From a virus: a stretch of 64,000 bases of DNA. A program made the position numbers and the translations under genes. Location of the stretch: positions 32,001-96,000 of the IMG/VR virus record IMGVR_UViG_3300028840_006907; one strand, 5' to 3'. The notes beneath the pieces are model-generated. The model did no database searches. It was given only the letters and a program-made list of their open reading frames with translations, and was not told where the DNA came from. Below are positions 1 to 20,311 of this stretch, piece by piece; position 1 is the first letter of the stretch; each line of letters opens with the position of its first letter.

Positions 1-240
1 TCATGGAAAGAAGGACAGGAAACTAAACAAGTACCTTCATCATTTGCGTAATAGTATCCGGTAAGAGAGGTGTCTTGTTTCTTAATATTAAAACCCTTCT
101 TTTTCGCCATAGCATCAAATTGAACTATGGGTATATTAGAAGCAATCACCTTAGCTTTATTTGTAACCAATGTATCATGATCAACTAAGACAACAGAGAT
201 ATTCATAATTAATAACCTTTCGATAAAAAACCTTTATAAT

Positions 241-570
241 CTATCGAATTAAATATAAAGATAGATTTCGTTCATCTATTTGTTTAAAACCTTGAGAGAT
301 ATACCATTTTTGAAGTTGTTCAAAGGATAAATCACTATCTAAAGGAGATGCATTTAATACTATTCCTGTATCGGGAAGGAGTGATTCAATAAATTGATTC
401 AATAATTTTCTCCCATTTTTTTGATACTTAATAGTAACTTGTATATTTTCAATCATTATCCAGGTATGGGTTTTATTCCAGAAGGGGCTGTCTTCTTCAT
501 CAAATTCATATCGGATGTCTTTAGTAACAAAATGATAAATTATATATCCTTCAAGTGTTTCAAATTGCAT
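241..570 (-). CDS. hypothetical protein (start moved to ATG at 570; track ORF 241..675)
   Basis: ORF track; internal ATG at 568-570 removes overlap with upstream gene; no secure motif. Confidence 0.4.
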   Translation of the reverse strand: MQFETLEGYIIYHFVTKDIRYEFDEEDSPFWNKTHTWIMIENIQVTIKYQKNGRKLLNQFIESLLPDTGIVLNASPLDSDLSFEQLQKWYISQGFKQIDERNLSLYLIR

Positions 571-595
571 AATTGATATACCCTCTCTTTTTTGA

Positions 596-943
596 TCAGA
601 CTTTTCTTCTGTCAATACAAGCTTCACATTGGCAATTCTTAGCAGCAATCTTATCCAGTTCACTACCAACAACATAAGAATCGATATTATAAATAAACCC
701 GTGACTTCTCACAGTTCTATCTTTCTTATTCCAAAATCCCTGTGCTTTCATTCCACTTACACTACCACTTGAATCGATATTAGCATGAGCACTATGCCCT
801 AAACCCGTAGTCCCATCTTTTATCCAGGCAATCCCGGTCTTTGGGCAACGATGTAACTCTACATAATCTCTGATATTTTTAATAAATGTATTATCCATGA
901 TCTTAATCTCCTTTATAATTAAATACAAAGCCATAGAGAGCAC
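596..943 (-). CDS. hypothetical protein
   Basis: ORF track; co-oriented block; weak peptidase-like HxxxD segment not sufficient for a call. Confidence 0.4.
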   Translation of the reverse strand: MLSMALYLIIKEIKIMDNTFIKNIRDYVELHRCPKTGIAWIKDGTTGLGHSAHANIDSSGSVSGMKAQGFWNKKDRTVRSHGFIYNIDSYVVGSELDKIAAKNCQCEACIDRRKV

Positions 944-1003
944 ATCTATGGTTCAGAGGTATCTTACTATCCCTGAACCATAGACAGGCTTAAACGGCCT
1001 TTA

Positions 1004-1318
1004 TTAACACCCCATCTGTTCCATAATACTTTTAACTTTACGCACAAACCATATAGGCAATCTTAATATTCCCCCTATACTATTGCCCTTGATATCTTCA
1101 TCTTCCTGTTTAATAGTTTTTAAATATGCTTCTGGTCGTATAAGTGTTCTACTATCCAAAGTAATTGAAGGATTGTTATTTGTATAAATAGAACTACCCG
1201 TAGTCGCTATAATAAACATGTCATCTTTAATCGGAATACCTAATTCCTCTGTAGGAATTATTGTAGTGATAATAGTCTTATCACCAACACATCGTAAGAA
1301 TACTGGATGCTGTATCAT
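1004..1318 (-). CDS. hypothetical protein
   Basis: ORF track; co-oriented tight gene block. Confidence 0.4.
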   Translation of the reverse strand: MIQHPVFLRCVGDKTIITTIIPTEELGIPIKDDMFIIATTGSSIYTNNNPSITLDSRTLIRPEAYLKTIKQEDEDIKGNSIGGILRLPIWFVRKVKSIMEQMGC

Positions 1319-1324
1319 AATTAT

Positions 1325-1561
1325 TTACTCCCATGATAAAATTGACATACCTAAACAAGTCTCAAGCTCCTCTTGAGAACTAGGTACATGATCAGGTCGA
1401 AACTTAATCCAAGTAGAAGTTTTAACTCCCCGTACATAGGGAGGATTACATTCGATGGTCACCGCAGGAACAAAAGAAACTATGCAGTTAATCAAACCAT
1501 TACTTTCAAATTCATTGTATCGGGTAAACTTAAATGTATCCATAAATATAACTTCTTCCAT
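1325..1561 (-). CDS. hypothetical protein
   Basis: ORF track; co-oriented tight gene block. Confidence 0.35.
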   Translation of the reverse strand: MEEVIFMDTFKFTRYNEFESNGLINCIVSFVPAVTIECNPPYVRGVKTSTWIKFRPDHVPSSQEELETCLGMSILSWE

Positions 1562-1689
1562 AAGTATTTCTGGTTTAATGGGTTACCATTGTCTACCGAC
1601 AAAATCCTCTTCATCTTCATCAGGATTGATCACATTATCCCATATGATCTTTTTAATTTTTACAAATAGCTGTATGATAAATTTCATAA

Positions 1690-1872
1690 TCAGTCCTCTG
1701 GCTGAAATGTTAAGATTAAATTCTCAATCTTTATTCCAAAGCTCCGTACCTTGTCCAATAAGGTCGGGAAATTATCCACTATAATAATTCTCGGTTTATC
1801 CTTAATAATCCCAAAAGCACTTATTGCCTTATCTGAATAATGAAGATTAATCTGTAATTCAATTTTATTCAT
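1690..1872 (-). CDS. small protein, paralog of 3047..3238 (shared DKPRIIIV..FP motif)
   Basis: Translated ORFs align by eye: L.N..YS.DK.SA.G.I.DKPRIIIV.FP.L...VR..GIK.E.L. Confidence 0.45.
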   Translation of the reverse strand: MNKIELQINLHYSDKAISAFGIIKDKPRIIIVDNFPTLLDKVRSFGIKIENLILTFQPED

Positions 1873-1873
1873 A

Positions 1874-2542
1874 TCAACATGCCCTCTCTGAATAAATATT
1901 ATAATTCTCAGGTAAGTTTATCGGAACCTCCTGAAACAACTCATCAATAGCCTTCTCCGCTGTAATAGTATCATAAAAGTAGATGTCCTCTACTTCCTGC
2001 TCTAAATCCTCAGCATCCATATCACTCTCCGATAAATCCTCCCTACGAGATACCCTAACTTTAAATAACTTCACTTCATATTTCGATACCAACAAATCCG
2101 GGAAATCATCAGGGTCACCCAATACAATAACAAAAACATTCTTTAAATCATATGCCTCATAATCTATCCAGATACACTCCTGATGAAGGTATCCCCGAAA
2201 CCGAATACCTTTTACAATTGCACCACACTCTATGTAAGGTGCCATCTTAACATCACTAACCTTCTCAAGACTCTCATCCATACGGGCACAACTATTTATA
2301 ATATTACCCTTGTAACCATCATTGTATCTTAATACAACCTCCATAGTACGATCAGGACTAATATCAGCATCAAAGTCAAAATGAAAATCCACCAACAAAC
2401 TTAAACGCTCATACTCAGTTCCCGATCTAAATTTAACCAACCTAATTTTATCAATCTCGGAACCAACAGGCAATGAATTTAATAAATCCTTATCACCTAT
2501 CTTATAGCCACGACTACCATCTGCACTTATATTAACTCTCAT
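1874..2542 (-). CDS. hypothetical protein
   Basis: ORF track; 222 aa; co-oriented block. Confidence 0.5.
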   Translation of the reverse strand: MRVNISADGSRGYKIGDKDLLNSLPVGSEIDKIRLVKFRSGTEYERLSLLVDFHFDFDADISPDRTMEVVLRYNDGYKGNIINSCARMDESLEKVSDVKMAPYIECGAIVKGIRFRGYLHQECIWIDYEAYDLKNVFVIVLGDPDDFPDLLVSKYEVKLFKVRVSRREDLSESDMDAEDLEQEVEDIYFYDTITAEKAIDELFQEVPINLPENYNIYSERAC

Positions 2543-2544
2543 AA

Positions 2545-2886
2545 TTACATTTCCTCCTCTATATATCTCCTTGCTTCATCTTCACTCTTAAAATAAAAAG
2601 TCGTTATATCCTTCAATTTTTTAATACGCCACTTCTTATCCTTATGATGAAATATCCTACCCTCTGAATCAACGATATAATAATAAGTCGAAGCAGCTCT
2701 ACCAAATCCATCAGGTAAATATTGATTACTAACTATCCAATAATCACCTACTCTCGGATACTTATCCAAATAGCCCAACCTCTCATAACAACTTTCACAT
2801 AATAACTCTTCAGAAGTAGCATCCTCCGGGACATCCGGGATACTAATCCCACAAACAATACATTTTATCTGATTTTCATATGCCAT
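2545..2886 (-). CDS. hypothetical zinc-ribbon protein (CxxC...CxxC)
   Basis: ORF track gives TTG start at 2901; first ATG at 2884-2886; N-terminal CIVCG ... CESC. Confidence 0.45.
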   Translation of the reverse strand: MAYENQIKCIVCGISIPDVPEDATSEELLCESCYERLGYLDKYPRVGDYWIVSNQYLPDGFGRAASTYYYIVDSEGRIFHHKDKKWRIKKLKDITTFYFKSEDEARRYIEEEM

Positions 2887-2888
2887 AA

Positions 2889-3044
2889 TTATTTCTTCCA
2901 ATCTTTTTCATAAAATTCACAGACTACATAATCAGCTTTTTTTTCTTTAAAATAAGAACAATAAATACAACCTTTTCCAACTTCAACTTCTTTGTCTTTA
3001 TAGAAAGGACATATTTTTACATTTTTATAATATATCTTCAACAT
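2889..3044 (-). CDS. small Cys-rich protein (51 aa), below ORF-track cutoff
   Basis: Hand-translated ORF MLKIYYKNVKICPFYKDKEVEVGKGCIYCSY...; fills gap between neighbours. Confidence 0.25.
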   Translation of the reverse strand: MLKIYYKNVKICPFYKDKEVEVGKGCIYCSYFKEKKADYVVCEFYEKDWKK

Positions 3045-3046
3045 GA

Positions 3047-3238
3047 TTATTTACTCCTTGTTAAATCCTCAAGCTTTATCCCCAATCCACGTACCTGTTT
3101 AAATAACTCCGGGAAATCTCTCACTATTATAATCCTCGGCTTATCCTCAATCAGCCCATAAGCACTTAGCTTATCTGAACTATATCCTAAATTAACCTGT
3201 AACGATACTTTATCCATATTCTTACCTCCATATAACAT
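3047..3238 (-). CDS. small protein, paralog of 1690..1872
   Basis: Shared DKPRIIIV motif with 1690..1872. Confidence 0.45.
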   Translation of the reverse strand: MLYGGKNMDKVSLQVNLGYSSDKLSAYGLIEDKPRIIIVRDFPELFKQVRGLGIKLEDLTRSK

Positions 3239-3740
3239 TATATATACCCAATTACCTTTTTTATCCAGTAATATAACATTTTAATACTATCAAATACCAA
3301 CGTCCTATATGGTGCGTCCGTATTAATCTCTATTAAATCAGTCGTCCTATATCTTTAAACTATGGTCTATATAGTAATAAACACGATCTATAAATCAAAT
3401 AACAATTTTAAGGTAATCCTCTTACTCATCAATATCCATATCTTTATAATAAAAAACCCACACATAGCACCTATAAAAATGTGGAACCCTTTAAGGCATT
3501 TCTTAAGTAACTATGTATGGGCACTGAAAGGGATTTATACAAATCCCATTATTATCTTAATATATTAACTTACTATATGTCTATACCTATAAACATATCC
3601 CCCTATATATTACTAATTAGTAATATGAATGTAATTATCCCTATCCCCTATATCTAATAACCTATAAACTATCCATTAAGTATATCTGTATCCTATCCAT
3701 ATAATAACTCTGTAAGAGAAAATTAATATGTATCAGTATG

Positions 3741-3888
3741 CCCATTACCTTGAATAGAATAATGAGTAAGTCAGTACCAGGAACTATACCATCATGAACT
3801 ATGAACTCGGAACTATGTCAGGGAAAACTTGAGTACTTACCCATTACCTTGAATAGAATAATGGGTAAGTCAATACCAGGAACTATGT
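3741..3888. repeat. direct repeat of about 48 bp (two copies, 99 bp apart) containing CCCATTA..TAATGGG hairpin and GAACTAT iterons
   Basis: cccattaccttgaatagaataatg(a/g)gtaagtca(g/a)taccaggaactat seen at 3741 and 3840. Confidence 0.7.
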
Positions 3889-4260
3889 CGGGAATTTCCA
3901 ACGAGTATTTTGAAAAAATTTATTCTCCCTGCAAAACCCGGAACCGATTTCCTAGTTCCTACAATCATATATTAATAATCTTTTGTTATCTGTATAAGTA
4001 AATTTACACAGGGTAATTGACTGATCAAAGTAAGTTAATGTCTTCCCAAACCGAGTCTTTGACTTGGGGAAATTGGTTGTTGACTGTAGAGAAGAATAAT
4101 TTCACTTGCTCATTTGGGTATTTGACTTGGGGAAACTGGTTCCCGACTATCAAAAGTGGGGTTAAAAACGAGGGGGGTTACCCCTAAATTTGATATTTCC
4201 AGACTGGGAACTCAGACAGGGGCGATTCCAGACTGTTTCTGGCCAGACTGGGGGAAAGAC

Positions 4261-4512
4261 CTAAGACGGTCTTAGTCCACTCATCCAAGACCATTGCCAT
4301 TTATCTGATCCGTAGCTCCAGACCTGGAATGACTTGGATAGAATTTTATATGTTACTGCCAGACAGAAAATGATCTTTGAGTCTCCACGTCCCAGGATTT
4401 CCTGGACACCGTGTAATCCACGGAACTCTAGGCTATCGGCTGATTTAATTTCGTTCTGAACTTCTATGGGAAGTTCATTCATGTTTATTTGATCTATACT
4501 TGTGATATGCAT
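4261..4512 (-). CDS. hypothetical protein
   Basis: ORF track; co-oriented. Confidence 0.35.
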   Translation of the reverse strand: MHITSIDQINMNELPIEVQNEIKSADSLEFRGLHGVQEILGRGDSKIIFCLAVTYKILSKSFQVWSYGSDKWQWSWMSGLRPS

Positions 4513-4703
4513 TAGTCTCTCAATGCCTCACAGGTAAGGGTAGCGGGAACTACTTCAAACTGAGTTCCAGGTTCAGTACCTTGTGTGAGTTCTACTGTAC
4601 GTATGCTGGCTATATTAAAGTCAGTATAGAACTCTGTGTTATCATCCCATGCGAATTTTTTATCTTTATTTATTATGATCCATCCTTGTAATTTCATAAT
4701 CAC
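4512..4703 (-). CDS. hypothetical protein
   Basis: ORF track; co-oriented. Confidence 0.35.
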   Translation of the reverse strand: MIMKLQGWIIINKDKKFAWDDNTEFYTDFNIASIRTVELTQGTEPGTQFEVVPATLTCEALRD

Positions 4704-4929
4704 CTCTCATTGTACGTTTAAATAGGTTTTCAGGCCATATCCAGACTGAAGAGGTATTCAGCTACCTCTCAGTTCCAGACAGGCTTAAAACAGGTTTATT
4801 CTTCTTCATCTTCGTGGTGTATGATTTCACCAGAAGTATATCCTTCTTTAATAAGTTCTGCTATGTGTTCTCTATCAAGATCGTTGAGTTCATCAACTCC
4901 AGAGAAGGTTAAATTCCACCATCCAGTCA

Positions 4930-5190
4930 TTAGTTTAACTCCTTGATACGTTTGTTAACGGTTATTACTGCTTGTTTATATGAACAGTTTGATTTATTCA
5001 TTTCCTGAGCATACCAGATAAGTCTGATAAAAGATACACAGGCGACTGCTCTGGCATGTTCACGTTCTTTCTTGGTTAATTCACCGGGATTGAAATGAAC
5101 TCCGGCAATAGTCGGGGTTGATAAGCTTCCAGGTGCACCAAATTGCTCAATCCCATACAATTGGTTATTGATTCTTTTGATTTCTGGCAT
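4930..5190 (-). CDS. hypothetical protein
   Basis: ORF track; co-oriented. Confidence 0.4.
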   Translation of the reverse strand: MPEIKRINNQLYGIEQFGAPGSLSTPTIAGVHFNPGELTKKEREHARAVACVSFIRLIWYAQEMNKSNCSYKQAVITVNKRIKELN

Positions 5191-5314
5191 AATTCTCTCC
5201 TTGATTGGGGGACACTGATTTAAGTTTTACCAGACAAGTCGATTCTGACTATTTTAGACTGAAATCCAGGCTGAATTTCCAGACTGATTTGGGGAACGGG
5301 ATTTCCAGACTGAA

Positions 5315-5482
5315 CTAGTCCGAATCTTCTAGGTTTGCAGATACTTCTCCATCGATTTCTTCAACATCGAAAGGATATTCAACAGAGATTTCGTCCTCAA
5401 GAGTTTCAATAGTACAGTTATCGGGTAAAGGATCTTGTACTTTAATTCTTCTATGAATAGTAATATTATAATAACGAGCCAT
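5315..5482 (-). CDS. hypothetical acidic protein (start moved to ATG 5482 with GGAGG SD)
   Basis: ATG at 5480-5482 preceded by GGAGG; track ORF 5315..5512 overlaps neighbour. Confidence 0.35.
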   Translation of the reverse strand: MARYYNITIHRRIKVQDPLPDNCTIETLEDEISVEYPFDVEEIDGEVSANLEDSD

Positions 5483-5496
5483 TGCTACCTCCAGGT

Positions 5497-5691
5497 TTAG
5501 GTTTGTTTCCAACCAAAGTTATATTTGCTACTCCAATTTTTATAAAGCAGTTTAATATTTAAGTGAGTATTTCGTTTGATAAATGTTTTTGCCTGTTTCA
5601 ATGCAGAGTTAAATGGTCGGTCTACAAAGAAAACTTTGGTTAATTTATTCTTGGAATCAGTATACTCAATTTTGTATTTCTGTTTATTCAT
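5497..5691 (-). CDS. hypothetical protein
   Basis: ORF track. Confidence 0.3.
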   Translation of the reverse strand: MNKQKYKIEYTDSKNKLTKVFFVDRPFNSALKQAKTFIKRNTHLNIKLLYKNWSSKYNFGWKQT

Positions 5692-6011
5692 TTTCTGATA
5701 TTATGTTGTTCTTTTTGATGAGTCACCCAGCTATCATAACCCAGACGGGTCTCCTCATTAGAGACAGCGAGTCTCCATTCTTTCATAGGAAAGTCGGGAT
5801 CTTCAGTTTCGAGTTTAGGATTTTGTTTGATGTAATCTGCTATGGATAATTCTTTTTCCAGTACACCTTCACACCCATCATTGGTAAGATTGACTTCGAC
5901 TATTTTATAACCATCTTCGTTTAATTGTTTATGTTTTATCATGATCTCTTTTAAGGATGAAGATGTGAAAGTAACTCTTTTAATGATTAAATCTTGGTTT
6001 TGGATCTTCAT
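5688..6011 (-). CDS. hypothetical protein
   Basis: ORF track. Confidence 0.4.
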   Translation of the reverse strand: MKIQNQDLIIKRVTFTSSSLKEIMIKHKQLNEDGYKIVEVNLTNDGCEGVLEKELSIADYIKQNPKLETEDPDFPMKEWRLAVSNEETRLGYDSWVTHQKEQHNIRK

Positions 6012-6017
6012 AAATTT

Positions 6018-6239
6018 TTACTCCTGGTTATTCTGTACGAGGAATGGGTGAAAACATCCATCTATGTATTGAAGTTTATACTCATCAGTTCCTTCTCTGA
6101 ATACAGTAGGTAAAGTTTCACCTTTATTATTCACATAAGCATTCCCTGTATAGTAATGATGCTTCTTATCAAATGTGAGACCGTATTTCTTACCTATGGC
6201 GGTCAGAGTCCTACGGGCTTTAACAATTTTATTATTCAT
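6018..6239 (-). CDS. hypothetical protein
   Basis: ORF track. Confidence 0.4.
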   Translation of the reverse strand: MNNKIVKARRTLTAIGKKYGLTFDKKHHYYTGNAYVNNKGETLPTVFREGTDEYKLQYIDGCFHPFLVQNNQE

Positions 6240-6525
6240 TTTCCTTTTTCTCCTTTAAGCTCTTTAATAATAATTCAGCTCTTACACTTTCTTTTAGGAT
6301 CTCTCCATAGTGTTCATGGCCTTCCGGGAATATGAAGTATTGGATAGCTTCTTTCTTGATTGGGCAATCGGCTTCGCCATCTTTTGTGGCTGAATAGAAG
6401 TGGGGATATTGACTATATCCGTTATCCCATTGCAGGGCATAGTATCGGTTAGTCTTTTTTGATTTATATATGTTCTTAAGGAATCCGGTATGACTATATA
6501 CAAATCTTAATTCTTGATAATCCAT
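6232..6525 (-). CDS. hypothetical protein; preceded by conserved upstream element
   Basis: ORF track; start codon directly follows repeated element at 6536-6557. Confidence 0.4.
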   Translation of the reverse strand: MDYQELRFVYSHTGFLKNIYKSKKTNRYYALQWDNGYSQYPHFYSATKDGEADCPIKKEAIQYFIFPEGHEHYGEILKESVRAELLLKSLKEKKENE

Positions 6526-6535
6526 ATTGGTTAAT

Positions 6536-6557
6536 CCTTTTTAAGAGATGTCAGATT
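6536..6557 (-). promoter_or_regulatory. conserved upstream element copy 1 (minus-strand reading AATCTGACATCTCTTAAAAAGG)
   Basis: Identical 22-mer at 6536, 6845 and 7252, each ending a few nt before a minus-strand start codon. Confidence 0.5.
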
Positions 6558-6579
6558 ATAACTTTTAGTTTCTTTTGAT

Positions 6580-6837
6580 TTATATGTTCTTAAGGATATC
6601 AATTAAGTCAGTTAATTCACATTCACAATAAATTGAATAATGTAGACCTTCTGCATCCAAAAAAGTTAATTTGGAATTAATTATTACTAGTTCCTCATAA
6701 TCAAATACATTTACTTTGATAGCGTTACTATCGATATGTTTTGATTTGGTCTTACTTTTATTGATCTCAGTTTTTAATGCTTCTTTAATTTCTTTTTCTA
6801 AATTATTGTATCGATTAAGTAAGTTTTGATATTTCAT
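6580..6837 (-). CDS. hypothetical protein; preceded by conserved upstream element
   Basis: ORF track. Confidence 0.4.
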   Translation of the reverse strand: MKYQNLLNRYNNLEKEIKEALKTEINKSKTKSKHIDSNAIKVNVFDYEELVIINSKLTFLDAEGLHYSIYCECELTDLIDILKNI

Positions 6838-6844
6838 AATATTT

Positions 6845-6866
6845 CCTTTTTAAGAGATGTCAGATT
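6845..6866 (-). promoter_or_regulatory. conserved upstream element copy 2
   Basis: Same 22-mer as 6536..6557. Confidence 0.5.
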
Positions 6867-6871
6867 GTCAT

Positions 6872-7243
6872 TTAATACTGGTTAGTTGTGATAGAGAAAG
6901 AATTATAACAACTACCAAAGACATTTTCGAATCCAGAATGACTAACTAGGTCACTGATTTTAACAGGGAGAGGTAACTTGTTAAATTCATTCTCTGTTAA
7001 TCCCAGGAAACTAAGTAGGTCATTTTTAGAGACCCAATCATATTCTTCCCAAAAATCTATATCAGCATTTACAGTGGCCCAATCAAATACACAATCGTTT
7101 GCTTTTTCTGCAACATTAACTTTATAGTAGAATCGATATTCATTTTCTTTCTTTATAAACTTCCATGCCAGACCGTATTCATAGAGAGATGTACCAAGAT
7201 CTGTATCTGTTCCTTCATATCCTTTGAGTTCTGATAAGTACAT
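6872..7243 (-). CDS. hypothetical protein; preceded by conserved upstream element
   Basis: ORF track. Confidence 0.4.
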   Translation of the reverse strand: MYLSELKGYEGTDTDLGTSLYEYGLAWKFIKKENEYRFYYKVNVAEKANDCVFDWATVNADIDFWEEYDWVSKNDLLSFLGLTENEFNKLPLPVKISDLVSHSGFENVFGSCYNSFSITTNQY

Positions 7244-7246
7244 AGT

Positions 7247-7498
7247 TTAATCCTTTTTAAGAGATGTCAGATTACAACTTTTAGTTTGTTTAAATTTAAT
7301 GATGAATTGATCAGGGTTATCGAGTCTTACTAGGACAGTACTGGATTCATATTCATATATGATAGCTCCAGACTGTCGTAGGTCGTTCAGTATTTCTGTC
7401 TCTGGGATATTAGTATCTTTAAAGTGATAGATACTATCATTCATACCGGTAGCTCTGGGGAATTTATTATTAGGGTTTTTTGTATATTTTACTGACAT
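7247..7498 (-). CDS. hypothetical protein
   Basis: ORF track. Confidence 0.4.
   Translation of the reverse strand: MSVKYTKNPNNKFPRATGMNDSIYHFKDTNIPETEILNDLRQSGAIIYEYESSTVLVRLDNPDQFIIKFKQTKSCNLTSLKKD
7252..7273 (-). promoter_or_regulatory. conserved upstream element copy 3
   Basis: Same 22-mer as 6536..6557. Confidence 0.5.
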
Positions 7499-7718
7499 TT
7501 TTTGTTAATCCTTTCTATTGGTTGTTATTTCATGTATACATAGAATTATGGCGGTAATAAAGCATATTCCCATAATTGGACCGATTGTCCATGACCATGA
7601 GAATGTTCCTATAGAACCTGCCATAATAGCCAGGATCATAATTATGCCTAGTGCGGTAGATATTTTTTCTTTCATGATGGGTATATCCTTTTTTATGAGT
7701 TACAAGATCTACTACAGT

Positions 7719-8375
7719 TTATTCCTCTTCTTTTTGTTTGAGTGAACAGAATTCACTTGCAGAAATAAGTTCTGTTACTGCATTGTATATTTCTAGGTCG
7801 TCATCACTTGGAACAAGTTCCTTTTCATACTCCAGAATAAATTCTAGGATACTTCCCATTTTATGTTCAATGTTTTCTATGTCTGGTAATCTTTTGATAT
7901 CTTCTAACCAGACATCTACATCATTACTATAGGATGAGATGAAACCGTCACAGCTAGTATAGATAGCTTTTAAGAAAGTAGAATAAGATTTAAGGACTTC
8001 TTTATTCTCAAAGAATTTTTTGATAGCTTCAAGATCAATTTCTACTTCAATATTTATCGAGTCGTTTTCATAGTTATACTGTTTAGGGGATGATACATTT
8101 TGTAGATTTATTTTAACAACATATGGTTTTAATTTCTTTTCTACAAATTCAACAAAGATTTTAGCGAGGGCTTTTTCATATCCTTCGTTATCGATTTCAA
8201 GATCATCATATTCGATTTCTTCATCCAGACTGTATCCTTTTTCTTTTCTTTCTTCATGATGCCAATCGTCATTTTCATTATAACCTTCTAATACTTTATC
8301 TGTATCCAGATCATACAGGGTATTATAGAACCCTGGAAAGAGAGGACACCAAGTTTCGATTTTAGTTGTTCTCAT
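7719..8375 (-). CDS. hypothetical acidic protein
   Basis: ORF track; 218 aa. Confidence 0.45.
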   Translation of the reverse strand: MRTTKIETWCPLFPGFYNTLYDLDTDKVLEGYNENDDWHHEERKEKGYSLDEEIEYDDLEIDNEGYEKALAKIFVEFVEKKLKPYVVKINLQNVSSPKQYNYENDSINIEVEIDLEAIKKFFENKEVLKSYSTFLKAIYTSCDGFISSYSNDVDVWLEDIKRLPDIENIEHKMGSILEFILEYEKELVPSDDDLEIYNAVTELISASEFCSLKQKEEE

Positions 8376-8677
8376 GATAATCCTCCAGACACTATAATTT
8401 CTCTTCTCTTTTCGAGATGGTGATATCTATGTCTTTTTATAATGGTTAGATCATAACCAATGCTTTCTAGTTCTTCTTTAAGATCTTTATATTCTTCGGG
8501 AGTAGCTAATCTACTTTCCTGAATGATCCCGTAAGGGTTACAGGCTCCGTGTTGGCCTATATGTTCATAAGACGAACAGGTCATAGGATTAGTATTTCCG
8601 GGTTCTTCGGGGAAGATAGCTATTACTTCGTTTGATATTTTCCAGAAACGGAAGATCACTTTAGTTTTGTTATTCAT
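8372..8677 (-). CDS. hypothetical protein
   Basis: ORF track. Confidence 0.4.
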   Translation of the reverse strand: MNNKTKVIFRFWKISNEVIAIFPEEPGNTNPMTCSSYEHIGQHGACNPYGIIQESRLATPEEYKDLKEELESIGYDLTIIKRHRYHHLEKRREIIVSGGLS

Positions 8678-8679
8678 AG

Positions 8680-8967
8680 TTAAGTCTCCTGTAGAGCGAT
8701 TTGAAATCTATTGGTATACTTCTGTATCTCTTTAGCGTATCTCTCATCACTCATAGTTTGGTTGTCGATTATTCTAATTTCTAGTACTTCTGAATCTTTA
8801 GTAAAAGTATTTATCATGGTAGTCTTGGTAATAGGGTAATATCCTTTCCAGTGTTTCACTATAAAGACTAAAGCCTCTTCTTTTATTACCCACTGTCTAC
8901 CGTACAATAAATCATGCTTTTTCATATCTTGGAGTATGTTTTCGAGTTTTATCCATGTTAATTTCAT
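8680..8967 (-). CDS. hypothetical protein
   Basis: ORF track. Confidence 0.4.
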   Translation of the reverse strand: MKLTWIKLENILQDMKKHDLLYGRQWVIKEEALVFIVKHWKGYYPITKTTMINTFTKDSEVLEIRIIDNQTMSDERYAKEIQKYTNRFQIALQET

Positions 8968-8968
8968 A

Positions 8969-9331
8969 TTATTTCACACACTTGTAACAGTGATTCATAA
9001 TAGTTGTGATGTTTGTATTAAAGAGTTTAACAAAGAAGTCTTTCTTATCATTATTAATAAGATATTCATAGACCGTATTAACTACATTGGCACTAAAGAG
9101 ATCCAGTAATACACCATCTACTAAAAGGCATTGTTTCTTTTTCAGTACCCATTTAATAGCGAGGATCTTTTTGATTTTACTACCATTAGTTTTACAGGTA
9201 TAATCTTTTACTGTATCGAGTATTTCTAATTTATCCTCACATGTACCATCATACCACCAATCCTTTATGATTTCAATTTCGTATTCTTTTAATTCGTTTT
9301 CGTTCATTGGATTTACTAATGTTGATGCCAT
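8969..9331 (-). CDS. hypothetical protein
   Basis: ORF track. Confidence 0.4.
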   Translation of the reverse strand: MASTLVNPMNENELKEYEIEIIKDWWYDGTCEDKLEILDTVKDYTCKTNGSKIKKILAIKWVLKKKQCLLVDGVLLDLFSANVVNTVYEYLINNDKKDFFVKLFNTNITTIMNHCYKCVK

Positions 9332-9427
9332 TATATGTTCTCCTTGTTATAATTACCTGGAACAGGTAGAGTTAAAAATATATATTACGTATTAGAAGTG
9401 CTTGAGTCGCGCTTTAAGGCATGGAGT

Positions 9428-9456
9428 AAGCCCGACCTTTACGGACAGTCGGGCTT
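9428..9456 (-). terminator. intergenic 9-bp-stem hairpin (AAGCCCGAC / GTCGGGCTT), terminator- or processing-site-like
   Basis: GC-rich inverted repeat directly downstream of minus-strand gene 9466..10086; no clear U-tract. Confidence 0.3.
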
Positions 9457-9465
9457 CTCTATGCA

Positions 9466-10086
9466 TTACCAGTCCCAGCACCGGGCACATTCCAAACATC
9501 CCGATACTTCATGCCAGACTGCAAGACAGTCCAGAGGATGTTTAGGAACGTTTTTAACTACTGAACCATGACAGTGGTAGGGAAATACTATAATGATTCG
9601 GGGATCATCTGGAACAGTATCTACGTCTCTCCTAGGGCCAAAACACATCTTACCTGGAAATTTACTCCAGACTTTCTTTGGAGTTGTAGCATCGATACTT
9701 AATAATAATCTGAGATTAGGTAATTGATCATTAATGACCTTTGCTATTTCAGGTTTCCTTGTCATGCCATAGAACATAGTTTTAGGGCATTCATTAGCGA
9801 GGTTAATAATATTATTCACGTGATCAGGTAATAGATCACCACATCCATTTAAACGTACTGCATGACAGTTTTTACATTCGACTATGACTTTGAGTAGATC
9901 ATTACCGGTGAAGTAATCAGAAACATAGTTCTGTTTTTTCACGGTATTGGGTAAAGCCATATGTCCGGATCGGGCATAGCAAAGTTTCTGACATAACTTA
10001 CTAGGTCTACAATGCCCTTTCATGGGAAAGTTTATTGAGACACCAGTTTTCTTGTTTTCAGAAATGATAGTTAATGGAGTATACAT
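9466..10086 (-). CDS. hypothetical Cys-rich protein
   Basis: ORF track; 206 aa; multiple Cys/His. Confidence 0.45.
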   Translation of the reverse strand: MYTPLTIISENKKTGVSINFPMKGHCRPSKLCQKLCYARSGHMALPNTVKKQNYVSDYFTGNDLLKVIVECKNCHAVRLNGCGDLLPDHVNNIINLANECPKTMFYGMTRKPEIAKVINDQLPNLRLLLSIDATTPKKVWSKFPGKMCFGPRRDVDTVPDDPRIIIVFPYHCHGSVVKNVPKHPLDCLAVWHEVSGCLECARCWDW

Positions 10087-10482
10087 ACTTATACCTCCTG
10101 TTAATATGTAACATTGTTCTTAATTTTATTCATATATTAAAGACTCTCTCGTATACTATCTTGAGAGAGGATTTTTCGAATTGATATTTATTTACTGAGC
10201 GAGTAATTGTTGTTGAATTTAATGAAATTTTAAGTACCCCAATGTGCGTGTAAGTAAATTTGAATTTTTCTGTGATAACAGACTGAAAACACTTAGGGAT
10301 GAAAACTGTAAGTACCGTCCCCCAAATAGGGCTAGGGAGGTTATTTTGTATCTGAGAAATCAGATTTGGAAAGTAAAAATAATAATATTTTTCTACTCTT
10401 TTTTGATCTTTTATAATAAATTATAAACGAGTCTCCAGGACATTCAGACCGTCTTGTGAGAAAATGATGAGTTAAATAGTTT

Positions 10483-10560
10483 GCGCCCCCTGGAAGCTGA
10501 AAACCGAGGGGGCGCATTAACACAAATAAAGGAACGCCCTCAAAAGAGGGTGTCACCCTT
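10483..10560 (-). terminator. GC-rich hairpins downstream of 10628..11926 (GCGCCCCCT..AGGGGGCGC; CCCTC-loop-GAGGG plus T-rich run)
   Basis: Inverted repeats seen in an otherwise AT-rich spacer. Confidence 0.3.
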
Positions 10561-10627
10561 TATCTACTTAATATATCCTGAATCAACCAAAAAGTCAACT
10601 TTAATATTTCCAACACTTTATAATAAA

Positions 10628-11926
10628 TTACACGTTATAGTTCTCATTAACTGTTTCAGTTTTCTCAAATTCCTTTTTTAATAATGAGATACCATACATG
10701 CCTACGTCTGGTTGAAAGATTAATAGACGTTCATATTTAGTTCTGCCTTTTGAGAATTTCACTTTATCTCTGACAGAATCGGGGATTTCAGAAATACCAA
10801 AGAGGAGCTTATTAAGAAATTCATATTCTGCATAGAATTGATTCTTTTCATTTTCTTTATAAGATCTTTCTTTCATAAGATTAAGGATAGATCTTTCATT
10901 ACCATCAAATTTCTTTAAGAAGTTAGCATTAACAGTAAACTTCTTAGGTGATTTATATTCTTTCCATTCAACACCTTTCATCCAGTGCGGGAAAGGTTTA
11001 TCAGGATTGGCATATCTAAAGTTGGCGTATTCTTCACCACGAATATAGAACTGTAATTGAGATTTGATCTTATATGTTAGCCATTTCTTTCTTTTAACGA
11101 CTTCTACTAGAGTATCTTGGTTAAGGGGCATCATAGCATATTCCCCGACCAAGGGAGGAATATCTACTTCATAGGTGACTGATTTAATTTTAATTTTTTT
11201 CTCGTTACCAAGTTTAGTAGTTTCAGGCCATTCCTTTTTCTCTTCGGGAGGTAAGACAATACCTTTATCGTTCATAAGTTTAATAAGTCCACCAAGATAT
11301 TGTATTTCATCTTCCAGACGGGCTAGGGCTATTTTAATTACAAAGTAATTAGAGGAGAAGATATTAAATCTTCTTTGAGGAGCTATAAAATTATTAAAGG
11401 TTATCTTTCCATTGGAAGCTAGTTTAATAAAGAACTCGTTCTCTTTTGCAGTGGGCATGAACTCTATACGTTCCCAACCTTCATACCATTCACCGTCTAC
11501 ACCTACAACATTAAAGACTCGGAAGTCTCCGGTATCATCGAACTTCATGATATTAACATCAACTATTCTCATACCAAAAGACCAAAGATCTTTAGCACAA
11601 GAAAGGCCAACGACTTTACCGTGTCTATTTTCTTTTGAGACAAGGTGCTGTCCATCTTTTAAGACTGTGCCTCTCATGGCATGGTACTTAGATATATTGA
11701 TCACGGCATTACGTGACATAAAGTTATACATTGCAGACTGAAGATCGAGAGTAGTTCCGGTATAATTACCTTCAGCATCACAGACTGTTGTAGGATTTTT
11801 ACTGAATATATCGGGAATAAGACTTTTAACTAAGGTCTCATAATCTACATCCTGAGACCTGTTAATAAGAGTTTTTACGAATGGTTCTTTTAATATGTTT
11901 TTTAGTTTTTCAGGTACTTTCTTCAT
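10628..11926 (-). CDS. hypothetical protein (432 aa)
   Basis: ORF track; a KDG tripeptide is present but a ligase call is not supported. Confidence 0.5.
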   Translation of the reverse strand: MKKVPEKLKNILKEPFVKTLINRSQDVDYETLVKSLIPDIFSKNPTTVCDAEGNYTGTTLDLQSAMYNFMSRNAVINISKYHAMRGTVLKDGQHLVSKENRHGKVVGLSCAKDLWSFGMRIVDVNIMKFDDTGDFRVFNVVGVDGEWYEGWERIEFMPTAKENEFFIKLASNGKITFNNFIAPQRRFNIFSSNYFVIKIALARLEDEIQYLGGLIKLMNDKGIVLPPEEKKEWPETTKLGNEKKIKIKSVTYEVDIPPLVGEYAMMPLNQDTLVEVVKRKKWLTYKIKSQLQFYIRGEEYANFRYANPDKPFPHWMKGVEWKEYKSPKKFTVNANFLKKFDGNERSILNLMKERSYKENEKNQFYAEYEFLNKLLFGISEIPDSVRDKVKFSKGRTKYERLLIFQPDVGMYGISLLKKEFEKTETVNENYNV

Positions 11927-12023
11927 AATGAATATCCTTTTAAAGATTACGGTTCGGTATCATATATTATACGAGATTTAGGAAAGAAAGTGATAAGAAA
12001 AAAATTTAATTATTTATTTAAGT

Positions 12024-12542
12024 CTAACCTTTCGAGGTATTTAAAGATTTAATATAATCCTTTCGTTTTGTATGATATTCTGTATAAACAAAAGGAATCT
12101 CAATAAATTGTTTCCCATACCAAGACTGGCCTTTAACATTACTTAATTGAACCTTAATATTCTGAGGAAACTCATAGTTATCCATCAACCACTTCCAGAC
12201 TTCTTCAGAGAAAAGGATATGTAGGTCAGAACAATAATTATTCATGTTCTCCTCTGGAATATTAAACATTTCTTGTAATAATTTTTTCCAGGTCATATCT
12301 AATTGATCCAAGATATCTTTCTTATCCTTTTTAGTAAGGATATAATCACACCCGTCCCCAAGGGGGACAAAGCCAGACTTAAGAGCGTGTATGGCTTTGC
12401 CTCCGGCATCGGTGGTTCCGTATAATTCAGAGGAGCATTGAAAATTAATTGATCCATCTTTATAAACTGTTATGGGAGTCTTTCTTTTAATAGTCATAAT
12501 AATCTCCAGGTTAATTGGTGAATAACCAGACTGTCGGTTCAT
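12024..12542 (-). CDS. hypothetical protein
   Basis: ORF track. Confidence 0.4.
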   Translation of the reverse strand: MNRQSGYSPINLEIIMTIKRKTPITVYKDGSINFQCSSELYGTTDAGGKAIHALKSGFVPLGDGCDYILTKKDKKDILDQLDMTWKKLLQEMFNIPEENMNNYCSDLHILFSEEVWKWLMDNYEFPQNIKVQLSNVKGQSWYGKQFIEIPFVYTEYHTKRKDYIKSLNTSKG

Positions 12543-12720
12543 AAGGTTTATTGTGGAGGTCTAACTTACCACGTAGATTCTTATGAAGGACTTTTACTGT
12601 TCGATAAGTTTTCTTATTAAGTTTAGCTTCTTTCAAAGCCTCTTCATAAGATTTACCAATTACTTTTCTTAATATCTTACCATTTACTTCTATTGATTCG
12701 GGTAGATTACATTGAATCAT
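12511..12720 (-). CDS. hypothetical protein
   Basis: ORF track. Confidence 0.35.
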   Translation of the reverse strand: MIQCNLPESIEVNGKILRKVIGKSYEEALKEAKLNKKTYRTVKVLHKNLRGKLDLHNKPYEPTVWLFTN

Positions 12721-12983
12721 AATCCCTCCTGTTCTTTATCTATCCATTCAGTTTCTATCTCAGTAAGAGCATTAATTAATTCTCTCATATGAGATATAGG
12801 AACTTCGATGAAACATTTTCCAGGTTGACCTTTACTTGTTATAGGTCTAATTTCTATGAAAGGTCTTTCACCTTCGAATGGACTTTCAAATTGCCCCAGA
12901 CTGAGACCGGAACATTTAAAAGAACCGTTACGTCCTAAGAACTTAGAATGATATCCGTCAAATTTAAAAGTTTTCTTTATCAT
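12717..12983 (-). CDS. hypothetical protein
   Basis: ORF track. Confidence 0.4.
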   Translation of the reverse strand: MIKKTFKFDGYHSKFLGRNGSFKCSGLSLGQFESPFEGERPFIEIRPITSKGQPGKCFIEVPISHMRELINALTEIETEWIDKEQEGL

Positions 12984-12997
12984 GATTTAATCTCCTG

Positions 12998-13567: not shown

Positions 13568-13722
13568 AATACCTCAATACCTCTCTTTTATTAAATATAA
13601 TTAACTGGAATGATTTGACTTAGATATATTTTATATATAATGGGGTGGTCATCCCCGGATTTACCGGGGCTGTCTCTGGGAGAATCGATACAAATGGCGG
13701 TGATTTAGACCACTCCATTTTA

Positions 13723-14745: not shown

Positions 14746-14877
14746 TGGATACCTCCATATTTATTATTTATGATATGTTATTTATTATCGATACTTTTTC
14801 GGGACTCTCAACTCTTATGGTATCGATAAGTCCCCCCAGTAGAGAGTTCCTATCTCTCTACCGGCCAGAGTTATATA

Positions 14878-16763: not shown

Positions 16764-16770
16764 TCCTTCG

Positions 16771-17613: not shown

Positions 17614-17618
17614 AATAT

Positions 17619-19915: not shown

Positions 19916-20311
19916 AAAAAATTGTAAAAACGCTATTTTCCTTTATATAGGGGAGAGCCAGAAATCGCCCGTTTGATGTGCGTGATATATACGCCCGAAA
20001 ATGTTCCCGGTTCTAACCCCCCAGTGAAATACCCTTTCCACAAAAGTGAAATACCCCAATACAACTATACCATACCCGACCATACCCCACCCCCGGGACC
20101 TGTCTTCGGGATCATCATCATGCGCTTGCTTTTCGTGCGCTCAATGCCATACCCACCCCCTTTTTGTAAAGATTTTTGGAAGTTGGAAATGGATGGAGTT
20201 AGATTGGATTTTTTGGATGGTAGAAAATTTTGGCTGGTGGGAGAGACCCCACAGTAAAGTACCCGGTTGGTTCAGGGAAGTACCAATATGGTTCAGTGGA
20301 GTGTCTTTTTT

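What the first reader, a model, noticed from the sequence alone, without database searches (positions are those of the whole stretch)
3240..4260. 1-kb ORF-poor region with iteron-like repeats and hairpins
No convincing co-oriented ORF. Contains CCTATA-rich runs (3540-3700), a 48-bp direct repeat with internal hairpin and GAACTAT x4, two TTTGACTTGGGGAAA(T/C)TGGTT copies (4057, 4109), a GGGGGTTACCCC palindrome-like site and three CCAGACTG copies within 60 bp (4198-4250). Candidate second origin, packaging site or non-coding RNA locus.
Basis: seen in the sequence. Interest (0 to 1): 0.45.

Follow-up and report, generated by a model that had tools for sequence, protein, structure and literature searches.

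The report
Conserved iteron array bounding phage module
This 1-kb gene-free stretch of a huge, phage-like genome carries a conserved row of evenly spaced (21 bp) protein-binding boxes that recurs in two distant relatives and at the neighbouring origin-like region, so it is most likely a replication-origin or replication-control site rather than junk, a hidden gene or an RNA gene.

Summary
Window 3239-4260 has no credible ORF, and the listed repeats exist; one coordinate is off (4109 should be 4121).

Comparison with relatives added the key evidence. Two independent metagenomic relatives (L067/68/69 and L080) share the adjacent ~15-kb gene block and also have a gene-free gap at the same place. 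The ~400 nt next to the block (window 4260->3890, minus strand) is alignable in all three. It holds a short GC hairpin with a T-run. Exactly 57 nt further on begin boxes AGTCAAnTACC, spaced at multiples of 21 bp. An AT-rich block and a second conserved block follow.

A matrix trained only on the relatives' boxes was scanned over the 64-kb window. Its top four hits are three boxes here and one at 20,023 in the tandem-repeat-rich region at 19.5-21.1 kb, in inverted orientation. The two best GC-skew change points (3,700 and 20,150) fall in these two regions.

My best reading is an iteron-type origin or replication-control locus, one of a pair bracketing the block (confidence 0.4). The main rival is a terminator/operator/promoter junction. 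No Rfam family matches. The CCAGACTG copies belong to a dispersed, strand-biased motif. The other listed repeats (47-nt direct repeats, TATAGG/CCTATA-rich run) are not alignably conserved in the relatives. The binding protein is unidentified.

The parts
4199..4250 (-). Three copies of CAGTCTGG (CCAGACTG on the + strand), just downstream of the last gene of the conserved block. This is one cluster of a dispersed, strand-biased 8-mer.
   Evidence: 15 copies in the window against 0.92 expected; further clusters in the intergenic regions at 4741-4782 and 5253-5312, and copies inside genes in all three frames; the cluster before the hairpin, and the strand bias (GTCTGG 21 against 4), are also present in relative L080.
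4161..4185 (-). Short GC hairpin AGGGGTAACCCCCCT followed by CGTTTTT. It looks like a terminator and is conserved in position in both relatives.
   Evidence: flags it as a minus-strand terminator-like site; it is present in L080 (AGGGGGTTACCCCT + CCGATTTTT) and L067 (GAGGGGTAACCCCCTC); dG is -7 to -11 kcal/mol, and the T-run is on the sense strand in the window and L080 but not in L067.
4012..4159 (-). Iteron-like array of seven 21-bp units (core GTnnTTGACT on the + strand). The strong boxes AGTCAAnTACC on the minus strand lie at 4117-4127, 4075-4085, 4054-4064 and 4012-4022.
   Evidence: periodicity at 21/42/63; the first box lies 57 nt after the hairpin in all three genomes, and box spacings are multiples of 21 (+/-1) in the window, L080 and L067; a matrix trained on the relatives only ranks 4127, 4064 and 4085 as hits 1, 3 and 4 in the whole window.
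3960..4011 (-). AT-rich stretch directly after the boxes. It contains AAAAGATTATTAAT (3971-3984), which is identical in L080.
   Evidence: Alignment A3; duplex stability here is below the window mean (-1.07 against -1.23 kcal/mol per step) but not extreme.
3889..3940 (-). Second conserved block, GGGTTTTGCAGGGAGAATAAATTTTTTCAAAATACTCGTTGGAAATTCCCG. Alignable homology with the relatives ends here.
   Evidence: GGTTTT..GG(G)AGAA..AAT..CAAA(A)T(T)AC.CGTTGGA..CCCG is shared by the window, L080 and L067; no sigma-70 consensus match.
3741..3886 (.). Two 47-nt direct repeats (3741-3787 and 3840-3886), four GAACTAT boxes, and a perfect 12-bp inverted repeat at 3835-3870. All are specific to this genome.
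   Evidence: not alignable to the relatives, which carry a C-rich 'TACC' segment instead.
3560..3720 (-). AT-rich stretch rich in TATAGG and GGATA, with a perfect 20-bp palindrome (3607-3626). It holds the least stable duplex of the region (3531-3619) and the GC-skew change point (~3700).
   Evidence: a G-rich, C-poor segment rich in TATAG occupies the same relative place in L067 and L080.
3447..3549 (-). Two hairpins followed by U6. This is a strong intrinsic-terminator-like or sRNA-like element, specific to the minus strand.
   Evidence: dG -36.1, z -5.4, matched by 0 of 200 shuffles; rank 7 of 1760 windows across 1-22 kb, minus strand only; not found in L067 or L080.
3301..3395 (-). Four (R)TC(C)TATA boxes on the + strand at 3301, 3343, 3364 and 3385, spaced at 21/42 bp. 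Two are exact TATAGGACG on the minus strand. They lie upstream of the first downstream gene (start at 3238).
   Evidence: The periodicity is not significant on its own (lag 21 = 0.40 against a 95th percentile of 0.44).
20023..20263 (+). Matching boxes outside the finding: AGTGAAATACC at 20023 and 20045 (22 bp apart) and AGTAAAGTACC at 20253. They sit in the tandem-repeat-rich strand-switch region and are inverted relative to the array at 4012-4127.
   Evidence: the second GC-skew change point and the cumulative-skew minimum are at 20,150-20,160. L080 carries the same G variant (AGTGAATTACC) within its own array.

Best explanation
The finding is the non-coding boundary of a conserved ~15-kb gene block ('module B', window 4261-19517, minus strand; it includes DUF932, a 432-aa protein and a GP88-like protein). 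The block sits in a ~470-kb phage-like genome.

The functional core is the ~400 nt next to the block. It contains a short hairpin that probably ends the block's transcripts. It then carries a phased array of 21-bp iterons (box AGTCAAnTACC) that places several copies of one sequence-specific DNA-binding protein on the same face of the helix. An AT-rich stretch follows.

The same box occurs, inverted, at the other end of the block in the tandem-repeat-rich region at about 20 kb. Strand composition switches at exactly these two places (-0.34 | -0.05 | +0.30).

I therefore read the locus as an iteron-type replication element. It would be either a second, outward-firing origin or an origin-control array that pairs with the 20-kb origin.

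Shown: the region is non-coding; the boxes, their conservation, their phasing and the fixed 57-nt offset; the shared box family at 20 kb; the skew change points.

Inferred: that a protein binds the boxes, that this protein is element-encoded, and that the role is in replication. The outer 650 nt (3240-3890) is lineage-specific spacer. It carries its own repeats, a strong terminator-like hairpin and probably the promoter of the downstream genes.
For: - Non-coding status. The relatives' gaps also lack called genes and any shared open frame.
- Homology of the core in two independent relatives: the blastn hit of window 4185-4118 to L067 is 76% identical, and window 4227-4115 to L080 is 76% identical. 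That is comparable to the 64-80% seen in the flanking coding DNA. The three-way alignment is A3.
- Box positions: the first box lies 57 nt after the hairpin in all three genomes, and spacings are 21/42/63 (+/-1).
- Periodicity in the window alone: lags 63, 42 and 21 are the top three; the first two exceed the shuffle maximum and lag 21 its 95th percentile.
- A matrix trained on L080 and L067 only gives, as the top four hits in 128 kb of window sequence, 4127(-), 20023(+), 4064(-) and 4085(-), with 20253(+) ranked 9th.
- 6 of the 8 matches with at most one mismatch in the window fall in the two non-coding regions.
- The best two GC-skew change points over 1-34 kb are 3,700 and 20,150. The skew flip inside the gap recurs in L067 and L080.
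Against: - No Rep, DnaA-like, primase, ParA/B or HTH/RHH family was detected in the block or the flanks.
- The conserved 432-aa protein has no Pfam or PDB relative; the only trace is a marginal SarA-like hit, E 0.07.
- DnaA boxes occur at the chance level.
- The skew changes size here but does not change sign. The cumulative-skew minimum is at 20,160, not here.
- Skew could reflect transcription or a different history of the block rather than replication.
- The AT-rich stretch next to the boxes is not an extreme stability minimum.
- Only two independent relatives reach the locus, and neither reaches the other boundary, so the inverted pairing is seen in one genome only.
- The 20-kb boxes are the G variant with one mismatch. 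The window-wide count of box matches is only modestly above chance (8 against 3.9; 5 of 100 shuffles reach 8).
Confidence: 0.4

Rival explanations
1. Transcriptional junction. The hairpin terminates the block's operon. The phased boxes are operators for an activator or repressor. The second conserved block (3889-3940) is the promoter it controls, driving the variable downstream genes. In this genome the strong hairpin+U6 at 3549-3447 would act as an attenuator or antitermination target ahead of the gene at 3238.
For: - Both flanking operons run in the same (minus) direction, so a terminator-then-promoter layout is expected here.
- The hairpin with a T-run is flagged in the window and in L080.
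- There is a strong, strand-specific terminator-like element at 3549-3447.
- The conserved block 3889-3940 contains a conserved CAAAAT/CAAATT element with an A/T-rich upstream part.
- The CAGTCTGG 12-mer clusters recur 40-115 nt upstream of neighbouring gene starts, as regulatory sites do.
Against: - No sigma-70-type promoter is predicted at the conserved block in any of the three genomes, and promoter-like sites are fewer than in shuffles (3 against 8.6).
- A terminator/promoter junction needs about 100-200 nt, not 1 kb.
- It does not by itself explain the same boxes at the 20-kb repeat region or the coincidence with both skew change points.
- The strong hairpin was not found in the relatives.
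Confidence: 0.3
2. End of a mobile or inserted module. The ~16-kb block would be an element inserted at the phage's original skew switch. The inverted arrays of 21-22-bp boxes at its two ends would be multi-site binding platforms for its recombinase, as at Tn7 or Mu ends.
For: - Boxes are in inverted orientation at both boundaries.
- The block has its own composition (skew about 0, GC 31-40%) and its own strand-biased 8-mer, both stopping at the boundaries.
- The block has about 85 relatives at 45-69% identity, whereas the genes left of the gap are found nowhere else among 15 billion proteins.
- Homology with the relatives ends about 120 nt beyond the last box.
Against: - No transposase or integrase family (rve, DDE, tyrosine or serine recombinase) was detected in the block.
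- Both relatives have the same layout of block, gap and C-poor genes with the same skew flip. The arrangement is therefore ancestral rather than a recent insertion.
- Neither a terminal inverted repeat nor a target-site duplication was looked for specifically. A general repeat search and self-BLAST of the region reported none.
Confidence: 0.1
3. Partition (centromere-like) site. The phased direct repeats would be bound by a small ParR/ParG/ParB-type adaptor to segregate or position the large genome.
For: Arrays of short direct repeats in helical phase are typical of type Ib/II centromeres (my own knowledge). The element is very large at ~470 kb. A second cluster of the same boxes exists.
Against: No ParA, ParM or ParB family appears in the window's genes that were scanned. 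The flanking small proteins have no detectable DNA-binding family.
Confidence: 0.08
4. Non-coding RNA locus. A transcript of the minus strand, for example a ~100-nt sRNA ending at the 3549-3447 hairpins or a longer RNA spanning the 47-nt repeats, would be the functional product.
For: The 3549-3447 element has z -5.4 on the minus strand only and is followed by U6. A weak promoter-like site lies just upstream at 3583->3554.
Against: - No Rfam match even at E up to 10, apart from chance-level hits.
- Folds of the 480-560-nt halves have z -1.0 to -2.1.
- The structured element and the 47-nt repeats are absent from the relatives.
- What is conserved has a 21-bp periodicity, which points to DNA rather than RNA.
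Confidence: 0.07
5. A very short gene with 7-residue repeats. The frame across the boxes is open for 27-42 codons in all three genomes (window 4153->4025: ..NQFPQVKYPNEQVK..NQFPQVK..).
For: The same frame is open in the window, L080 and L067 (my reading). A 21-bp period equals 7 codons.
Against: - The start codon is TTG with no Shine-Dalgarno sequence, whereas neighbouring genes have GGAG-type sites.
- The codon score is 0.05.
- Stop positions differ between the genomes.
- The window/L080 differences near the start of this frame fall mostly on second codon positions (I/T, V/A, G/E; read).
- There is no Pfam or PHROG hit.
Confidence: 0.03

Closest known systems
Iteron replicons with a second, control array (P1 oriR/incC + incA; F ori2/incB + incC). 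From my own knowledge, not tested here.
   Same: Several direct repeats of about 19-22 bp in helical phase. A second cluster of the same repeat lies at a distance, with genes between the two clusters. An AT-rich stretch lies beside the repeats.
   Different: The arrays are ~16 kb apart rather than ~1 kb. No RepA/RepE-like initiator is recognisable. DnaA boxes are not enriched. The box sequence has no known relative. The host genome is a ~470-kb phage-like element.
Phages with two cis-acting sites bound by one initiator (Bacillus phage SPP1 oriL/oriR; satellite phage P4 ori + crr). From my own knowledge.
   Same: Two separated non-coding or repeat-bearing sites share one short binding motif. 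One looks like the main origin and the other is an auxiliary site.
   Different: Binding, and any requirement for replication, are untested here. The initiator is unknown. Here the two sites coincide with two GC-skew steps that bracket a block with almost no skew.
Multi-site transposon ends (Tn7 TnsB sites, Mu L1-L3/R1-R3). From my own knowledge.
   Same: Several ~22-bp binding sites are directly repeated within an end and inverted between the two ends of a ~16-kb segment.
   Different: No transposase family was detected. Neither terminal inverted repeats nor a target duplication were specifically sought. The same layout in two relatives argues against a recent insertion.
Rho-independent terminator followed by a regulated promoter at a phage operon boundary (for example lambda PR'-tR'). 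From my own knowledge.
   Same: Hairpin-plus-T-run elements lie between co-directional operons. In this genome a strong terminator sits ~210 nt ahead of the next gene.
   Different: The region is 1 kb long and holds a conserved phased box array. No consensus promoter is predicted. The strong terminator was not found in the relatives.

Membership tests
Iteron-type replication origin / origin-control locus | Three or more direct repeats of about 17-22 bp spaced in helical phase | tested here: met
   There are seven 21-bp units, four of them with strong boxes. Spacings are multiples of 21 in the window, L080 and L067.
Iteron-type replication origin / origin-control locus | Repeats conserved as a unit among related replicons | tested here: met
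   The box consensus and the 57-nt offset from the hairpin are shared by two independent relatives. A matrix trained on the relatives recovers the window array.
Iteron-type replication origin / origin-control locus | Adjacent easily melted AT-rich element | tested here: inconclusive
   A conserved AT-rich block lies at 3960-4011 but is not extreme. The least stable segment (top 0.5% of the window) is 3531-3619, 400 nt away.
Iteron-type replication origin / origin-control locus | Cognate initiator gene nearby | tested here: not met
   No Rep, primase or winged-helix initiator family was found in the block or flanks. The 432-aa family has no Pfam or PDB match. An unrecognised initiator is not excluded.
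Iteron-type replication origin / origin-control locus | Strand-composition switch at the site | tested here: inconclusive
   There is a change point at 3,700 (from -0.34 to -0.05) with no sign change. The sign change and the cumulative minimum are at 20,150-20,160.
Iteron-type replication origin / origin-control locus | Replication starts there, or copy number depends on it | not testable with these tools
   This needs marker-frequency data, origin mapping or genetics.
DnaA-dependent origin | Cluster of DnaA boxes (TTATCCACA-like) | tested here: not met
   The window has 24 matches with at most one mismatch against 23.7 expected, and none lies inside 3240-4260.
Rho-independent terminator | GC-rich hairpin followed by a T-run on the transcribed strand | tested here: met
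   The hairpin at 4185-4171 with T5 is weak (-7.3 kcal/mol). The element at 3522-3456 with U6 is strong (-28 to -36 kcal/mol, z -4.2 to -5.4).
Described RNA families (Rfam 15) | Covariance-model score at or above the family's gathering threshold | tested here: not met
   There are no hits at gathering thresholds in the whole window. The best sub-threshold hit is 25.8 bits against a threshold of 60.
   No frame is conserved as coding among the three genomes.
Tn7/Mu-type transposon end | Multiple binding sites, direct within an end and inverted between ends | tested here: inconclusive
   Inverted box clusters lie at 4012-4127 (-) and 20023-20263 (+) in this genome only. The relatives do not reach the other end.
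Tn7/Mu-type transposon end | Transposase (DDE/rve) encoded inside the element | tested here: not met
   No such Pfam or NCBIfam hit appears among the block proteins scanned.
Plasmid/phage partition centromere | Adjacent or cognate ParA/ParM plus adaptor genes | tested here: not met
   No partition family appears among the scanned proteins of the window. The rest of the 470-kb genome was not available.
CRISPR array | Regular repeat-spacer units related to the window's own repeat | tested here: not met
   An iterative nhmmer search seeded with the array repeat found nothing outside 44-47 kb. The 63-bp spacing comes from 3 x 21-bp units.

The most novel reading that the evidence does not exclude
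A previously undescribed lineage of very large phage-like elements would organise replication around a conserved ~15-kb block. The block is bracketed by two outward-facing iteron arrays of a new box family (ttCCCCA-AGTCAAnTACC), bound by an initiator with no known relatives. Each array would start or control one replication arm. That would explain the flat-bottomed GC-skew profile (-0.34 | about 0 | +0.30).
Probability: 0.25. Interest if true: 0.6.

Novelty: new member of a known kind. Interest (0 to 1): 0.45.

Why it matters
Origins and other cis-acting sites of huge phages are almost entirely unmapped, because these genomes are known only from metagenomes. Here a 1-kb 'empty' stretch contains a short motif that is conserved across relatives, phased like classical iterons, shared with the other repeat-rich region and aligned with both strand-composition switches.

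This gives a concrete, testable handle. The box can be used to fish out its binding protein. It can also be used to look for the same architecture in related contigs and to interpret read-depth profiles.

It also shows that most of the eye-catching repeats in the region are lineage-specific. The small conserved core is what deserves attention.

Tried and rejected
- **Hidden gene or alternative code.** Six-frame stop maps with TAG, TGA or TAA read through, a codon-usage score, Pfam/PHROG scans of all internal ORFs, and blastx against the window's own proteins to look for a decayed paralogue. No gene was found.
- **Known RNA.** Rfam at gathering thresholds and at E<=10, tRNA/tmRNA search, and large-scale folds. 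Nothing was found.
- **DnaA boxes**. They occur at the chance level.
- **Relation to the CRISPR repeat**. None.
- **Direct relatives by DNA.** Megablast/blastn against phages and plasmids, plus exact-pattern scans of IMG/VR, GTDB genomes and JGI metagenomes with the 24-mer of the 47-nt repeat, the 18-mer of the iteron, a gapped hairpin-box pattern and the CCAGACTG pair. These gave only chance hits, such as a 67%-GC contig and satellite-like tandem repeats.
- **Relatives through the flanking genes** 3047..3238, 1874..2542 and 4261..4512. These genes exist only in the source contig.
- **The route that worked.** The GP88-like gene 5 kb away led to L067-L069 and L080. Other homologue contigs were too short or not syntenic. 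IMG/VR and GTDB scans with the GP88 alignment found nothing.
- **TATAGGACG as a phage promoter**. Its four copies are co-oriented with the local genes but share no extended consensus, so I dropped it.
- **Function of the conserved 432-aa protein.** Searches of PDB, Pfam and 1.84 billion representatives found a family of 238 representatives with no annotation.
- **Literature.** Searches for the 8-mer, for DUF932 and for the contig length gave nothing useful.
Full report
**Context**

The window has about 33% GC and consists mostly of small genes with no known family. Phage-type markers are present: DUF932/TIGR03299, mycobacteriophage GP88-like, HNH, and an intein-containing radical-SAM protein. 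There is also a type I-E-like cas operon with a long degenerate array.

Several of its proteins are recorded on a contig of 469,617 bp held by NCBI, JGI, ENA and Logan. I found no DNA match to INPHARED phages or PLSDB plasmids.

Genes run on the minus strand from position 1 to 19,517. They switch to the plus strand after a 1.6-kb repeat-rich gap (19,518-21,095) and switch back near 43 kb. The finding lies between two co-directional minus-strand gene groups. I call them module A (1-3238) and module B (4261-19517).

**Observation**

The region 3239-4260 is non-coding by every test I could run.
- No frame of 100 codons or more is open under the standard code or with TAG or TGA read through.
- The internal ORFs of 42-68 aa score about 0 in a codon log-odds, like antisense junk. 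17 of the 18 small flanking ORFs tested score 0.17-0.50. The adjacent 4261..4512 ORF scores only 0.06.
- They have no Pfam or PHROG hits, and there is no remnant of a paralogue.

TATAGG on the minus strand is enriched: 7 copies against 1.45 expected, matched by 0 of 500 shuffles.

Four things were missed.
- The two 21-mers belong to seven units in exact 21-bp register at 4013-4159, with core GTnnTTGACT. Autocorrelation lags 63, 42 and 21 are the top three. Lags 63 and 42 exceed the maximum over all lags in 1000 shuffles, and lag 21 exceeds their 95th percentile.
- GGGGGGTTACCCC is the stem of a minus-strand hairpin followed by T5, so it resembles a terminator.
- A perfect 20-bp palindrome lies at 3607-3626.
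- A minus-strand element at 3549-3447 forms two hairpins followed by U6. It has dG -36.1 and z -5.4, and ranks 7th of 1760 windows in 1-22 kb on that strand only.

**CCAGACTG is a dispersed motif**

The 8-mer occurs 15 times in the window against 0.9 expected. Thirteen copies lie on the + strand between 4199 and 14469, and none lie left of 4199. On the sense strand it reads CAGTCTGG.

It forms clusters in the next two intergenic regions, with the 12-mer ATTTCCAGACTG occurring three times in the window. It also sits inside genes in all three frames, so it is not a peptide repeat. The bias recurs in relative L080 (GTCTGG 21 against 4; CAGTCTGG 5 against 0). Its role is unknown. The three copies in the finding are simply the last cluster of this family.

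**Relatives**

The genes immediately flanking the gap have no relatives among about 15 billion proteins. Exact-pattern scans with the region's repeats gave only chance hits.

The GP88-like gene 5 kb away has about 85 homologues. Contigs carrying two of them are collinear with module B at 64-80% nucleotide identity and extend far enough:
- L067/L068/L069, which are one element at 99.7-100% identity;
- L080.

Both have a gene-free gap just after the last module-B gene: L067 14562-15667 and L080 14922 to the contig end at 15756. In both, the gap is followed or filled by sequence whose sense strand turns G-rich and C-poor, as in the window.

**The conserved core**

The three-way alignment (A3) shows that window 4260->3890 (minus strand) is homologous in all three. 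In order it contains:
1. the CAGTCTGG cluster (window and L080);
2. the hairpin AGGGG..CCCCT with a T-run;
3. a well-conserved 57 nt;
4. boxes AGTCAAnTACC, each preceded by ttCCCCA;
5. an AT-rich stretch with AAAAGATTATTAAT, identical in the window and L080;
6. a block GGTTTT..GGGAGAA..AAATTTTT(T)CAAAAT(T)AC.CGTTGGA..CCCG.

The first box starts exactly 57 nt after the hairpin in each genome. The boxes follow at these offsets:

| Genome | Box offsets from the first box (nt) |
|---|---|
| window | 0, 42, 63, 105 |
| L080 | 0, 21, 43, 107 |
| L067 | 0, 21, 41 |

Identity in this non-coding core is 76%, as high as in the flanking coding DNA. Beyond 3890 the sequences no longer align (A4). The 47-nt repeats and GAACTAT boxes are therefore lineage-specific, and the strong 3549-3447 hairpin was not found in the relatives. 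The style is kept, however: a C-rich 'TACC' segment, then a G-rich segment rich in TATAG.

A period of two helical turns, kept across lineages, points to a DNA-binding protein array rather than an RNA or a peptide. The frame across the boxes is open for 27-42 codons in all three genomes. However, it starts at TTG without a ribosome-binding site, ends at different places, and its early differences fall mostly on second codon positions. I rejected it as a gene.

**Link to the 20-kb region and to strand composition**

A position matrix built only from the seven boxes of L080 and L067 was scanned over both strands of the window. The top four hits are 4127(-), 20023(+), 4064(-) and 4085(-), and 20253(+) ranks ninth. 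The tool's own scan finds 8 matches with at most one mismatch against 3.9 expected, and six of them lie in the two non-coding regions.

The 20-kb copies (ccCCCCAGTGAAATACCc, twice, 22 bp apart) carry the same G variant as one L080 iteron. They are inverted relative to the array in the finding, so both sets point away from module B.

A two-change-point fit of GC skew over 1-34 kb places the breaks at 3,700 and 20,150. Mean skew is -0.34, -0.05 and +0.30 in the three segments, and the cumulative minimum is at 20,160.

The finding is therefore the left member of a pair of box-bearing, repeat-rich, non-coding regions. Together they bracket a block with almost no skew and coincide with the two composition steps.

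**Interpretation**

I am fairly confident (about 0.8) that the core is a conserved, DNA-level, multi-site protein-binding array next to a terminator-like hairpin.

What the array does is inferred. The combination of iteron-like phasing, a second cluster of the same box at the origin-like strand switch, and the skew steps fits a replication element best. It could be a second outward-firing origin, or a control array that pairs with the 20-kb origin as incA/incC do in P1 and F, crr in P4, or oriR in SPP1. Those comparisons come from my own knowledge and were not tested here. I give this reading 0.4.

Several observations count against it.
- No initiator can be recognised.
- DnaA boxes are not enriched.
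- The skew does not change sign here.
- Only two independent relatives are available.
- The pairing is seen in one genome only.

The rivals are:
- a terminator/operator/promoter junction (0.3);
- the end of an inserted module with Tn7/Mu-like multi-site ends but no detectable transposase (0.1);
- a partition site without detectable par genes (0.08);
- an RNA locus (0.07);
- a micro-ORF (0.03).

**Novelty and verdict**

Phased iteron arrays are a well-known kind of element. This box family, its unknown binding protein and its setting in a huge-phage lineage are new, so I class it as a new member of a known kind.

The bracketing of a block with almost no skew by two inverted arrays would be a more unusual architecture if it holds up in complete relatives. 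Interest is moderate. The finding is real and conserved, and it gives a testable handle on replication or regulation in an uncultured giant phage. Its function is not established.

Noticed in passing
window 19518-21095: A 1.6-kb gene-free strand-switch region. It holds ~84-bp tandem repeats (about 4 copies, 19,570-19,900), three GTGGCGCATAT(T/C).. units, and a 14-bp tandem array GAGCACAGGGAAC(T/C) of about 17 copies (20,397-20,625). The cumulative GC-skew minimum is at 20,160. It looks like the main origin and carries the same box family as the finding.
   Followed up: partly
window 4199-19113 (and L080): Strand-biased 8-mer CCAGACTG, which reads CAGTCTGG on the sense strand of the genes. There are 15 copies against 0.9 expected, 13 on one strand. 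It is confined to module B, occurs in all reading frames and clusters in intergenic regions. The bias is conserved in relative L080. Its function is unknown; it could be Chi-like, a regulator site or an RNA signal.
   Followed up: partly
window 43990-47030 and 47128-53989: A long CRISPR-like array of about 45 units with type I-E-like repeats. The repeats are perfect near 46,870-47,010 and grow progressively degenerate towards 44,000. Next to it are minus-strand Cse1 (647 aa), Cas7/CT1975 and a 743-aa ResIII-type helicase. cas1 and cas2 were not looked for.
   Followed up: no
window 39669-41762: A radical-SAM protein interrupted by an intein with a LAGLIDADG homing-endonuclease domain.
   Followed up: no
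window 3047-3238 and 1690-1872: Two paralogous ~60-aa proteins (54% identical). They are the only two members of their family among about 15 billion proteins. The 222-aa neighbour (1874-2542) is likewise unique to this contig. By contrast, module B genes have dozens of relatives.
   Followed up: yes
window 10451-10575; 17501-17600 (-); 9376-9475 (+); 901-1025: Other very strongly structured 100-nt windows (z -5 to -8.8), two of the four in or near intergenic gaps (944-1003 and 9332-9465). The one at ~10.5 kb is strong on both strands, which suggests a long palindrome.
   Followed up: no
window 1315-1543 vs L080 6572-6801: A module-A gene of the window (1325..1561) is 73% identical at the DNA level to a gene that lies inside the module-B equivalent of relative L080. 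A gene has therefore moved across the gap between lineages.
   Followed up: no
window 4261-4512: The last ORF before the gap has an unusually low coding score (0.06 against 0.17-0.50 for its neighbours). It shares only a faint QVW..DKW motif with the last gene of the relatives, so it may be a decaying gene. If so, the non-coding region extends further right.
   Followed up: partly
window 53990-54683: A 694-bp AT-rich gene-free gap upstream of the cse1 gene.
   Followed up: no
L001 (IMGVR_UViG_3300045988_117048) 538-640: An unrelated 48-kb viral contig (28% GC) has TTTCCAGACTG, TCCAGACTG and CTCCAGAC within 100 nt in an intergenic region. This may be chance or the same motif in another phage.
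   Followed up: no
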